This document shows positions 63,001 through 64,000 of a stretch of 64,000 nt of DNA, piece after piece. The stretch covers positions 61,207 through 125,206 of the forward strand of contig JBBDOS010000003.1 of NCBI GenBank assembly GCA_040876925.1, given 5' to 3'. The DNA comes from Candidatus Saccharimonadales bacterium (lineage in GTDB: Bacteria > Patescibacteriota > Saccharimonadia > QS-5-54-17). Position numbers: made by a program. Numbering within the stretch: the stretch's first letter is position 1; each line of letters opens with the position of its first letter.

Positions 63001-64000
63001 GTATTACCAAAAAGCTTATGAACTATCCAAACGCATAGCTTCAGAGTTAGGTATCACTATTATAACTGGCGGTGGTTATGGCATTATGAAAGCCGCCAAT
63101 AAAGGTGGCAGTGAAGGTAATGGCAATACTATGGGTATGACTATTGAATTACCTTACGAACATGTCAAAAACCAATACGTTACTCACTCTAGTGCTTTTT
63201 ACTATTTCTTTTCCCGCAAAGTAGCCTTGGCTTTTGCTGCTAGAGCCTACGTCTACTTCCCTGGTGGATTTGGTACTATGGATGAGTTTTTTGAAATGCT
63301 CACTTTAAAACAAACCGGCAAGATAAAACCAATTCCTATCATTATGGTAGGTACTGAATTCTGGCAGCCACTCACAGAGTTTATTAACACCAAGTTACGG
63401 GATGAATATCACACTGTCAGTCCTGAGGATACAGATTTATATACAGTAACTGATGATTTTGATCAAATTATAGATATTATATCTAAAACTGAACCTAGGA
63501 AGCCTGCTTAAGCCCGTCTTCTTCCTGATTGTTCTCAGTTTTGGTTAGTTTTTTTCTTTCTTTGGGAGATAAATCACCCCAAACCCCAAATTCCTCGCCA
63601 CCTTCCATAGCAAGATCTAGACAGTCCTCCCTGACCGGGCACTCTCCACACATCTCCTTGGCATATTTTGTCTCTCCGCCCTTATCAGGAAAGAAAGCTT
63701 CTGGATCGCCATCTCTACATTTTGCTTCCCTATCGACGCGAATGAATTTCTTAAATCTATCGATATCGCCAGTTCCAATCACAGCACCCAAGAATCTGGC
63801 TACCGCCAATTCACTTGGAAATACTTTTACCTCTTCCCCCTGAGACAGCTGTTGATATTTAATATTCTCCATCTTTTCCTTATTCTGTATAAAACCTTAC
63901 CTAGTAACCACTCTCAAGTAGTTAGATTATCAAATATAGCTTACTATTAGCAAAAGCTTATGCTTATATTGAAACAGCCTCTTTATTTTTAGTATTTAAT

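What the first reader, a model, noticed from the sequence alone, without database searches (positions are those of the whole stretch)
63495..63872. WhiB-like regulator, with convergent 17-bp overlap to the LOG-family gene
Four-Cys Wbl signature plus FFP and GVWG motifs. Wbl proteins are considered hallmarks of Actinobacteria and their phages, so a Wbl in a low-GC, apparently non-actinobacterial genome is unusual and may reflect horizontal acquisition. In this window the NrdH-like redoxin, MarP-like proteases and a possibly leaderless transcript are also associated with Actinobacteria. The 3' ends of whiB-like (minus) and the LOG gene (plus) overlap by 17 bp, allowing antisense interference.
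Basis: partly seen in the sequence, partly recalled or inferred. Interest (0 to 1): 0.55.

Follow-up and report, generated by a model that had tools for sequence, protein, structure and literature searches.

The report
WhiB-like regulator in a Saccharibacteria genome
This is a real WhiB-like iron-sulfur transcription-factor gene sitting in the genome of a Saccharibacteria (candidate phyla radiation) bacterium, a group that lives on Actinobacteria, although the literature describes this protein family as exclusive to Actinobacteria and their phages.

Summary
ORF 63495-63872 (-) encodes a 125-aa protein with C-X22-C-X2-C-X5-C, FFP and GVWG(D). It matches Pfam Whib at 77 bits, and its AlphaFold model superposes on Streptomyces venezuelae WhiB at 1.1 A. 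It overlaps the convergent LOG gene by 17 bp.

The contig is not actinobacterial. It is 100% identical to a "Candidatus Saccharimonadales" MAG contig, about 41% GC, full of housekeeping genes. The neighbouring LeuRS is closest to Saccharibacteria MAGs.

A syntenic ortholog exists in one other Saccharibacteria species (leuS-wbl-LOG-ATPase). It is only 33-36% identical, while ten neighbouring genes are 49-87% identical. It still keeps all four Cys, the FF pair and the Trp. Relatives with 62-67% LOG identity lack wbl at this junction. No Wbl anywhere is more than about 60% identical in the core, and the gene's GC matches its genome.

Best reading: an old horizontal acquisition of a WhiB2-type Wbl from an actinobacterium or actinophage, kept as a fast-evolving, sigma-factor-binding redox regulator. 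A third, probably saccharibacterial, Wbl turned up at another locus.

The 17-bp overlap is ordinary genome compaction; antisense regulation is untested. I found no paper reporting Wbl in Saccharibacteria, though NCBI already auto-annotates this protein as WhiB family.

The parts
63495..63872 (-). wbl coding sequence (125 aa, ATG to TAG); identical protein in NCBI as MEX0668293.1, MEX0919518.1 and MEX2398812.1
63732..63872 (-). Lineage-specific N-terminal extension (residues 1-47). Residues 1-17 are predicted disordered; helices are predicted at 20-34 and 37-49. It is weakly conserved with the L007 ortholog (E21, V24, A25, F27, I32, G35, D36) and has no significant match elsewhere.
63540..63731 (-). 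Wbl core (residues 48-111). Cys ligand codons: C52 63717-63719, C75 63648-63650, C78 63639-63641, C84 63621-63623. FFP 63687-63695. GVWGD turn 63573-63587. Basic stretch K104-K111.
63495..63539 (-). Acidic, non-conserved C-terminal tail (TENNQEEDGLKQAS) plus stop codon; this is the part that runs into the LOG gene
63495..63511 (.). 17-bp tail-to-tail overlap of wbl and LOG. It covers only the non-conserved last residues of both proteins.
62765..63511 (+). LOG / TIGR00730-family gene (248 aa), convergent neighbour; 80% identical to its L007 ortholog
63877..63881 (-). AAGGA Shine-Dalgarno-like motif 5-9 nt upstream of the ATG
   Evidence: read directly
63926..63953 (-). Sigma-70-like promoter match (TTGCTA-16-GATAAT), about 53 nt upstream of the ATG, in the 177-nt leuS-wbl spacer. 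This is a consensus match only, not more frequent than in shuffles.
   Evidence: L001 9920-9947; window coordinate = 73873 - L001 coordinate

Best explanation
The gene encodes a genuine WhiB-like (Wbl) [4Fe-4S] protein of the WhiB/WhiB2 type, resident in the chromosome of a Saccharibacteria (Saccharimonadales, candidate phyla radiation) bacterium.

It was most likely acquired horizontally from an actinobacterium or an actinophage. The recipient was the common ancestor of this species and the species represented by L007. The gene was inserted at a synteny breakpoint between leuS and the LOG gene. It has since been fully ameliorated and has diverged faster than all its neighbours, while keeping the four cluster-ligating cysteines and three of the four sigma-binding aromatic residues.

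Inferred mechanism, by homology: the holo-protein docks through its FF/W aromatic patch and cluster pocket onto the His-Pro loop at the C-terminal end of region 4 of the cell's own primary sigma factor. From there it modulates transcription initiation. Its activity would be lost when O2, NO or redox stress damages the cluster. The lysine-rich stretch at residues 104-111 would give non-specific DNA contacts.

Shown here: family membership, predicted fold, host genome, orthology and synteny, distribution, and rate of divergence. Inferred: cluster binding, sigma binding, regulatory targets, and the donor.
For: Family and fold:
- Pfam Whib scores 77 bits.
- The best solved relative is S. venezuelae WhiB at 72 bits; Mtb WhiB1 scores 50 and WhiB3, WhiB4 and WhiB7 about 41.
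- The AlphaFold model has mean pLDDT 80.8, with the core above 90.
- Foldseek's best PDB match is 8dy9_H (WhiB in the RNAP-WhiA-WhiB complex): rmsd 1.1 A over 66 columns, TM 0.83.
- The WhiB2-type short loop FFP[DE]KGG is present.

Host genome:
- The window is identical to L001 (GCA_040904145.1), and the gene is found in four independent assemblies.
- The neighbouring genes are housekeeping genes.
- The adjacent LeuRS is closest to Saccharibacteria MAGs.

Orthology:
- L007 shows the same order over at least 10 genes: Mur ligase, C39 peptidase, leuS, wbl, LOG, ATPase and onward.
- Its wbl is also 125 aa and shares N-terminal extension residues.

Constraint: the two orthologs are 33-36% identical against 49-87% for the neighbours. 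All seven family-invariant columns (C52, C75, C78, C84, A88, G96, G99), plus F60, F61 and W98, are kept in both.

Patchiness:
- No wbl lies next to LOG or leuS in relatives L008/L167 (one MAG), L168 or L169/L170, and a Wbl HMM finds nothing in those loci.
- L168 keeps the ATPase-side synteny but not the wbl side.

Age: wbl has GC 44.7% and GC3 41.3%; the window's ORFs average 41.4+-2.1% and 34.4+-4.7%. In 1.84 billion representatives, only the query itself scores below E 1e-30, and the next best are 51-60% identical over the core only.

Mechanism portability: the His-Pro pair that Wbls insert into their cluster pocket (PMC6954389, PMC13013590) lies in ...KLRHPSRS..., which is also present in E. 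coli sigma-70.
Against: - No biochemical evidence exists for cluster or sigma binding.
- The sigma factor, WhiA and the Fe-S assembly genes of this MAG are not in any DNA I could reach.
- The AP1 aromatic position, six residues before the first Cys, is Val46 instead of Trp.
- The turn is GVWGD rather than GVWGG.
- The C-terminal tail is acidic, where actinobacterial WhiB2 proteins are Arg-rich.
- The very fast divergence could mean relaxed or altered function.
- The donor could not be resolved: a neighbour-joining tree on 66 columns has no structure, and the two orthologs do not even pair in it.
- A third, probably saccharibacterial, Wbl at an unrelated locus (P0010/L173) means the history may be older or involve more than one transfer.
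Confidence: 0.6

Rival explanations
1. The history is ancient or repeated rather than a single lineage-specific transfer. Wbl genes would be more widespread in Saccharibacteria than the two syntenic species suggest. They would either be inherited from an early saccharibacterial ancestor with many losses and relocations, or acquired several times from actinobacterial hosts.
For: P0010 is a 153-aa WhiB2-like Wbl, 53% identical in the core. It also has Val at the AP1 position and CL[DE]LA instead of CLxYAL. It lies on a 630-kb, 46%-GC contig (L173) at a different locus. Its neighbours match only Saccharibacteria loci among those held: an LTD protein is 42% identical over 530 aa to L168. The contig's WGS prefix is close to that of L007. 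Several other low-GC-looking Wbls of unknown origin are in the library.
Against: The taxonomy of L173 is not proven. N-terminal similarity to the window protein is not significant by BLAST. The three proteins do not cluster in the tree. No other Saccharibacteria locus examined has a Wbl. Searches of protein databases, GTDB representatives, JGI metagenomes and IMG/VR gave no further member with the extension.
Confidence: 0.2
2. The protein is host-directed. Like actinophage WhiB2 homologues that interfere with host WhiB2, it would act on the sigma factor of the actinobacterial host of this epibiont rather than on the epibiont's own polymerase.
For: Cultivated Saccharibacteria grow as epibionts on Actinobacteria (PMC10633639, abstract seen). 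The WhiB2 subfamily is two-thirds phage-borne, and the phage TM4 copy inhibits host WhiB2 (PMC13013590). The gene is the fastest-evolving in its neighbourhood, as expected for a host-interface protein.
Against: There is no signal peptide or transmembrane segment: the N-terminus is polar and predicted disordered, then helical. No secretion-system genes are nearby. An oxygen-labile Fe-S protein is a poor candidate for export. The gene context is housekeeping.
Confidence: 0.07
3. The protein is a degenerate or repurposed Wbl. It would keep the fold but no longer act as a sigma-bound transcription factor, for example serving as a thiol-disulfide or Fe-S carrier protein, or as a relic on its way to loss.
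For: Identity between orthologs is 33-36%. The AP1 Trp is lost, the turn has a G-to-D change, and the tail is acidic. No NCBIfam model matches either ortholog.
Against: Both orthologs are intact and are both 125 aa. They keep every family-invariant column and AP2-AP4. This meets the aromatic-patch criterion that 98.7% of Wbls satisfy (PMC13013590). An unconstrained 378-nt ORF would not stay open over a divergence that changed 25% of LeuRS residues.
Confidence: 0.1
4. Artefact: the gene is actinobacterial or phage DNA wrongly joined to a Saccharibacteria contig, or the bin is contaminated.
For: Wbls are otherwise reported only from Actinobacteria and their phages (PMC6282962, PMC13013590).
Against: The same junctions occur in two NCBI MAG assemblies and two Logan assemblies, with 0 mismatches across wbl. 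The same gene order occurs in an independent MAG of another species. The gene's GC and GC3 are within 1.6 sd of the window's ORFs. There are no phage genes around it. All viral relatives found have 61-74% GC.
Confidence: 0.02

Closest known systems
Streptomyces venezuelae WhiB / M. tuberculosis WhiB2 (the WhiB2 subfamily of Wbl proteins; PDB 8dy7, 8dy9)
   Same: It is the best sequence match (72 bits) and best structural match (rmsd 1.1 A, 48% identity over 66 columns). The Cys spacing is the same. It shares the FFP[DE]KGG short loop, the Trp-containing turn and the basic stretch after the turn.
   Different: It sits in a Saccharibacteria genome of about 41% GC. It has a 47-residue N-terminal extension found only in its L007 ortholog. 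Val replaces Trp at AP1. The turn is GVWGD. The basic stretch is Lys-rich rather than Arg-rich, followed by an acidic tail. Whether a WhiA partner exists is unknown.
Actinophage WhiB2-like proteins (e.g. mycobacteriophages MooMoo and Sunflower1121, Gordonia phage Kenna; the TM4 homologue in the literature)
   Same: Core identity is 45-58%, as close as any bacterial Wbl. Matches to phage WhiB families phrog_472 and phrog_1333 score 74.5 bits. Phages are a plausible vector for the transfer.
   Different: There are no phage genes around the window gene. Phage relatives are high-GC. None shares the N-terminal extension; the apparent 90% coverage by Microbacterium phage hits runs upstream of their annotated start.
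M. tuberculosis WhiB1 (PDB 5oay, 6ono)
   Same: The fold, cluster ligands and aromatic FF/W are shared. 'KCRDGDPEAFFP' resembles WhiB1's 'VCRDEDPELFFP'.
   Different: The score is lower (50 bits). WhiB1 has a five-residue longer loop after FFP and a Trp at AP1.
P0010, a 153-aa Wbl on contig JBJHDA010000001.1 (L173), probably another Saccharibacteria genome
   Same: It is WhiB2-like and 53% identical in the core. It has Val at AP1, the shared 'ECPVRxDCLxLA' motif, and a low-GC host contig.
   Different: It lies at a different locus with no LOG or leuS. Its N-terminal extension is longer, acidic and not demonstrably homologous. Its turn is the canonical GVWGG.

Membership tests
Wbl (WhiB-like) family, Pfam PF02467 | Profile match above the curated cut-off | tested here: met
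   77.1 bits against a cut-off of 23.6, E 1.6e-21, profile positions 3-65 of 65. The L007 ortholog also carries PF02467.
Wbl (WhiB-like) family, Pfam PF02467 | Four conserved Cys, C-Xn-C-X2-C-X5-C, that ligate the [4Fe-4S] cluster | tested here: met
   C52, C75, C78 and C84 are invariant in a 64-sequence alignment and in the ortholog.
Wbl (WhiB-like) family, Pfam PF02467 | Gly-rich beta-turn G[V/I]WGG | tested here: met
   G96, V97, W98 and G99 are present and D100 replaces the last Gly. G96 and G99 are invariant in the alignment and G100 is about 90% conserved. The ortholog has GIWGG. A few other family members have GxWGE.
Wbl (WhiB-like) family, Pfam PF02467 | Aromatic patch for sigma region 4 binding: at least two aromatic residues at AP1-4, including at least one of AP2-3 (criterion of PMC13013590) | tested here: met
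   AP2 and AP3 are F60 and F61, and AP4 is W98. AP1 is V46, not aromatic, with F43 one helical turn upstream. The test is by sequence alignment only.
Wbl (WhiB-like) family, Pfam PF02467 | Small helical fold around the cluster pocket | tested here: met
   AlphaFold core pLDDT is above 90. The top 15 Foldseek PDB matches are all Wbl proteins, the best at rmsd 1.1 A. This rests on a predicted structure, not a solved one.
Wbl (WhiB-like) family, Pfam PF02467 | Binds a [4Fe-4S] cluster | not testable with these tools
   Needs anaerobic purification and spectroscopy.
Wbl (WhiB-like) family, Pfam PF02467 | [quoted passage not shown] | not testable with these tools
   No sigma-70 gene is in the window or in any held locus. 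The HP loop itself is not actinobacteria-specific: E. coli sigma-70 ends ...KLRHPSRS....
Wbl (WhiB-like) family, Pfam PF02467 | Occurrence restricted to Actinobacteria and actinophages (a descriptive feature in reviews, not a biochemical one) | tested here: not met
   The host contig is Saccharibacteria. This is the point of interest, not a reason to exclude the protein from the family.
WhiB2 / Streptomyces WhiB subfamily | Closest to WhiB2-type sequences, with the short FFPEKGGS loop | tested here: met
   72 bits to S. venezuelae WhiB against 50 bits or less for other subfamilies. The loop reads FFPDKGGE. All top library hits carry the WhiB2 consensus.
WhiB2 / Streptomyces WhiB subfamily | Clusters within the subfamily in a phylogeny | tested here: inconclusive
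   Neighbour-joining tree on 66 columns with 200 bootstraps. The query sits on a long branch outside the tight WhiB2 cluster, and no supported grouping was found.
WhiB2 / Streptomyces WhiB subfamily | Works with WhiA at shared promoters | not testable with these tools
   No whiA is in the window or held loci. The rest of the MAG could not be reached. No paper links WhiA to Saccharibacteria.
LOG / TIGR00730 family (the neighbour gene) | Profile match above cut-off and the PGGxGTxxE motif | tested here: met
   TIGR00730 scores 134.6 bits against a cut-off of 96.35, and PF03641 scores 102.5 against 27. The motif FPGGFGTMDEF is in the translation.

The most novel reading that the evidence does not exclude
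Saccharibacteria that parasitise Actinobacteria have captured their hosts' (or their hosts' phages') signature Fe-S transcription factor and use it at the host interface. One version is a mimic that engages the host's sigma factor, as phage WhiB2 copies do. The other is a sensor of host-derived NO or redox signals that couples epibiont division to host state. The lineage-specific N-terminal helices and the exceptional rate of divergence would reflect that arms race.
Probability: 0.08. Interest if true: 0.85.

Novelty: new member of a known kind. Interest (0 to 1): 0.5.

Why it matters
Reviews, and a structural and phylogenetic study from February 2026, describe Wbl proteins as found exclusively in Actinobacteria and actinophages (PMC6282962, PMC13013590). 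Here is a chromosomal, conserved and evidently selected Wbl in a candidate-phyla-radiation bacterium, in a group whose cultivated members live on Actinobacteria.

This shows that the Wbl-sigma module can be transplanted across phyla. It gives a natural test of how little is needed for a Wbl to work: a primary sigma factor with the universal His-Pro loop. It also adds a concrete regulator to genomes in which almost no transcription factors are understood.

It is also a plausible trace of host-to-epibiont or phage-mediated gene flow. The finding is modest in kind, being a known family and already auto-annotated by NCBI. It does correct a textbook statement and is directly testable in vitro.

Tried and rejected
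1. Donor phylogeny. A neighbour-joining tree of 47 Wbls on 66 core columns with 200 bootstraps was unresolved. The two syntenic orthologs did not pair, and no donor could be named.

2. More members of the lineage. Only the L007 ortholog was found.
- A genome-contig scan with the protein found nothing.
- A profile search of the 5.8-billion-protein database found only P0001 and P0160 above 100 bits.
- IMG/VR hits were all high-GC.
- JGI metagenomes gave nothing closer than 48%, and the low-GC hits are WhiB1 proteins with the canonical WhiB1 N-terminus, presumably from low-GC freshwater Actinobacteria.
- A metagenome scan using the LOG alignment found nothing.

3. Apparent full-length similarity to Microbacterium phage WhiBs (90% coverage). 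Rejected: the alignment extends upstream of the annotated phage gene start and has E 1e-4.

4. A possible phage link through a 415-aa Gly_rich_2 protein, present both near wbl in L001 and in a two-wbl phage contig. Rejected: the proteins are not meaningfully similar.

5. A terminator or structured RNA at the wbl/LOG junction. None was found, and fold z-scores were -0.46 and -0.41.

6. A sigma factor or whiA in held DNA. None was found.

7. L171, a 92%-identical LOG variant. The contig ends 21 nt after LOG and is uninformative.

8. The AFDB fold library was unavailable.

9. Five literature searches pairing WhiB or WhiA with Saccharibacteria, Patescibacteria, the candidate phyla radiation or TM7 returned only papers about the hosts' WhiB or unrelated matters.

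Full report
**What is at the coordinates**

The minus-strand ORF 63495-63872 starts with ATG, ends with TAG and encodes 125 residues. Five to nine bases upstream of the ATG there is an AAGGA ribosome-binding motif (read). The translation carries Cys52, Cys75, Cys78 and Cys84, a C-X22-C-X2-C-X5-C pattern. It also carries FFP at 60-62 and GVWGD at 96-100.

The plus-strand ORF 62765-63511 is a LOG/TIGR00730-family gene. The two stop codons place the last 17 bases of each gene on top of the other (63495-63511).

**Is it a Wbl?**

Yes.
- The Pfam Whib model matches at 77.1 bits against a cut-off of 23.6, over residues 48-109 and 63 of the model's 65 positions.
- Against all solved structures, the best sequence match is Streptomyces venezuelae WhiB at 72 bits. 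M. tuberculosis WhiB1 scores 50 bits, and WhiB3, WhiB4 and WhiB7 about 41 bits each.
- An AlphaFold model built on 64 homologues has mean pLDDT 80.8, with the core above 90.
- Its 15 best Foldseek matches in the PDB are all Wbl proteins. The best is WhiB from the RNAP-WhiA-WhiB complex, at rmsd 1.1 A over 66 columns and TM 0.83.
- In a 64-sequence alignment the invariant columns are the four Cys, A88, G96 and G99, and the window protein has all of them.

[quoted passage not shown] The window protein has AP2 and AP3 (F60, F61) and AP4 (W98). At AP1, six residues before the first Cys, it has Val46 in place of Trp. This still satisfies that paper's criterion, which 98.7% of family members meet (PMC13013590). 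The short FFP-D-KGG loop and the consensus of all top library hits place it nearest the WhiB2/WhiB subfamily.

**Whose genome is it?**

The window is 100% identical to contig JBBDUB010000023.1 of NCBI MAG GCA_040904145.1. It is 99.8% identical to a second MAG, and two independent Logan assemblies carry the same locus. There is no mismatch anywhere in wbl. NCBI holds the identical protein under three accessions, each named 'WhiB family transcriptional regulator [Candidatus Saccharimonadales bacterium]'.

I checked the taxonomy independently. The LeuRS gene immediately upstream of wbl has as its closest relatives, among GTDB species representatives, two 'Candidatus Saccharibacteria' MAGs at 75% and 65% identity. 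Everything else is at or below 54%.

The window has 40.6% GC and is full of housekeeping genes. These include clpP, tig, hisS, recG, tyrS, a PBP, clpC-like, nusA, rnhB, rplS, dnaE, gatCAB, uvrB, pentose-phosphate genes, gap and ppa. It is neither a phage nor an actinobacterial contig.

**Orthologs and distribution**

The 75%-LeuRS relative (L007, JBJHCT010000006.1) has the same gene order over at least ten genes: Mur ligase, C39-like peptidase, leuS, wbl, convergent LOG, P-type ATPase, three small hypothetical genes and an MscS-like channel. Its wbl is also 125 aa, has the Pfam domain, and shares residues in the N-terminal extension: E21, V24, A25, F27, I32, G35, D36.

The two Wbls are nevertheless only 33-36% identical. 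The neighbours range from 49% for a hypothetical protein to 87%, with LeuRS at 75%, LOG at 80% and the ATPase at 80%. The gene is thus the fastest-evolving in its neighbourhood, while every cluster ligand and the FF/W residues are held. This argues for selection on function rather than decay.

Three next-closest LOG homologues (62-67% identity) were examined; two of them could be checked on the downstream side.
- In L168, a 739-kb Saccharimonadales contig, the whole ATPase-side synteny is preserved. The order there is rpe, rpiB, gap, ppa, a Grx-TrxR fusion, Grx, MscS, ATPase, LOG. Downstream of LOG lies a Gmad2-domain gene, then VanY, GmrSD and ComEC.
- L167 shows the same VanY-GmrSD-ComEC order. 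The leuS contig of that same MAG (L008) has no wbl either.
- The third, P0277 on L169 and L170, keeps the ATPase-LOG pair, but both contigs end about 77 nt after LOG, so its downstream side could not be read.
- A Wbl HMM finds nothing in any of these loci.

So wbl sits exactly at a synteny breakpoint that distinguishes the window species and L007 from their relatives.

**Origin**

An exhaustive HMMER search of 1.84 billion representatives gave 24,983 Wbl hits. Only the query itself scored below E 1e-30. The next best are 51-60% identical over the core alone. Named hits are Actinobacteria such as Rothia, Amycolatopsis, Saccharomonospora, Actinomycetaceae and Microbacteriaceae, or actinophages.

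The gene's GC (44.7%) and GC3 (41.3%) lie within 1.6 standard deviations of the window's ORFs. All viral relatives have 61-74% GC. Together with the patchy distribution, this fits an old horizontal acquisition from an actinobacterium or actinophage, followed by complete amelioration.

The donor cannot be named. A neighbour-joining tree on the 66 alignable columns has no resolved structure.

P0010 is a 153-aa WhiB2-like protein, 53% identical in the core. It also has Val at AP1 and the unusual CL[DE]LA motif. It lies on a 630-kb, 46%-GC contig. Its neighbours match only Saccharibacteria loci among those I hold: an LTD protein is 42% identical over 530 residues to L168. Its taxonomy is not proven, and its N-terminal extension is not demonstrably homologous. 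It does suggest that Wbls may occur in Saccharibacteria more than once.

**How it most likely works**

By homology with the solved complexes, the holo-protein would insert the His-Pro loop at the C-terminal end of sigma region 4 into its cluster pocket, which is lined by F60, F61 and W98. It would thereby alter promoter use. Cluster damage by O2 or NO would release it (PMC6954389; PMC13013590).

That loop is not an actinobacterial speciality. E. coli sigma-70 ends ...KLRHPSRSEVLRSFLDD, so a transferred Wbl can plausibly find a docking site on any primary sigma factor. The K104-K111 stretch could supply the non-specific DNA contacts described for S. venezuelae WhiB.

These steps are all inferred. 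I could not reach the sigma factor, whiA or Fe-S assembly genes of this MAG. The lineage-specific N-terminal helices at 20-34 and 37-49, the Val at AP1, the GVWGD turn and the acidic tail are differences whose consequences are unknown.

**The overlap**

Among the six convergent gene junctions in the window, this is the only one that overlaps; the others have gaps of 47-280 bp (coordinates). The overlap covers only the non-conserved last residues of both proteins. It shrinks to 4 bp in L007. In L168 the same LOG gene overlaps a completely different convergent gene by 4 bp.

No terminator-like site or unusually stable structure lies at the junction. Transcripts of the two genes must therefore overlap at their 3' ends. 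This looks like a by-product of a compact genome rather than a feature tied to wbl, and antisense interference remains untested.

**Comparison with what is known, and verdict**

The protein is a member of the Wbl family by every sequence and fold criterion I could test, and it is closest to WhiB2/WhiB. What is unusual is its host. The 2018 review and the 2026 structural and phylogenetic paper both state that Wbls are found exclusively in Actinobacteria and, in the latter, their phages. Five literature searches pairing WhiB or WhiA with Saccharibacteria, Patescibacteria, the candidate phyla radiation or TM7 returned nothing about a Wbl encoded by these organisms.

Cultivated Saccharibacteria grow as epibionts on Actinobacteria (PMC10633639). 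That makes host-to-epibiont or phage-mediated transfer an attractive source, and it leaves open a small chance that the protein acts at the host interface.

I rate it a new member of a known kind. It is of moderate interest because it corrects a textbook distribution and is easy to test biochemically. It is not a new mechanism, and NCBI's pipeline had already named the protein.

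Noticed in passing
L173 10001-10462 (GCA_050486305.1, contig JBJHDA010000001.1): A 153-aa WhiB2-like Wbl (P0010) lies on a 630-kb, 46%-GC contig. Its neighbours match only Saccharibacteria loci, and it is at a locus unrelated to leuS or LOG. It is probably another saccharibacterial Wbl, but the taxonomy is not proven.
   Followed up: partly
window 26650-27825 (+) and 27887-28975 (+): Two adjacent trypsin-like proteases. The first has the CvpA/Colicin_V plus Trypsin_2 architecture and passes NCBIfam's MarP-family equivalog cut-off (272 against 250 bits). 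The second matches only the protease half (166 bits, below cut-off). MarP is best known from mycobacteria.
   Followed up: partly
window 57415-57666 (-) and 56189-57367 (-): An 83-aa glutaredoxin-like protein (YruB/NrdH-like, below both cut-offs) lies next to a 392-aa fusion of a glutaredoxin domain with thioredoxin reductase. The same pair is conserved in the Saccharimonadales relative L168.
   Followed up: partly
L001 9817-9866 (just beyond the window end, equivalent to window 64007-64056): A 20-bp tandem repeat, TATCTAGGTTTATCTGGG(GC/AT), in 2.5 copies. It begins within the last codons of leuS and includes its stop codon, lying in the leuS-wbl spacer. It is absent from L007, where the spacer is only 63 nt.
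   Followed up: no
L168 10001-10747 / 10744-11235: In a relative that lacks wbl, the LOG gene overlaps a convergent Gmad2-domain gene by 4 bp. Tail-to-tail overlap at the LOG 3' end is therefore not specific to wbl.
   Followed up: yes
window 50576-52712 (-): Transketolase is encoded as two separate, slightly overlapping ORFs (N-terminal half and pyrimidine-binding/C-terminal half), within a pentose-phosphate/glycolysis cluster (rpiB, rpe, tkt, fba, gap).
   Followed up: no
L051 5298-5857 and L052 9723-10282: A roughly 29-kb phage contig (GC 49%) carries two tandem wbl genes next to a YqaJ-like recombination exonuclease and a lysis cassette. The host is unknown.
   Followed up: partly
proteins P0023, P0026, P0058, P0072, P0083, P0084, P0090 (representative library): WhiB2-like domains at the C-terminus of 200-265-aa proteins with low-GC-type amino-acid composition. 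Two of them share an 'FDELFAAAN' N-terminal motif. All are on short unnamed contigs, so their origin (low-GC Actinobacteria, phage or other phyla) is unknown.
   Followed up: no
window 31598-34696 (+): A 1032-aa protein with multiple weak Ig-like/PKD-type domain hits, probably a large surface protein, lying convergent to dnaE.
   Followed up: no
window about 8580-9010 (-) (L006 9378-9803): A pair of small ORFs of 69 aa each, one a HicA-toxin family protein and the other DUF7387. This is probably a toxin-antitoxin pair between recG and a 268-aa unknown gene.
   Followed up: no
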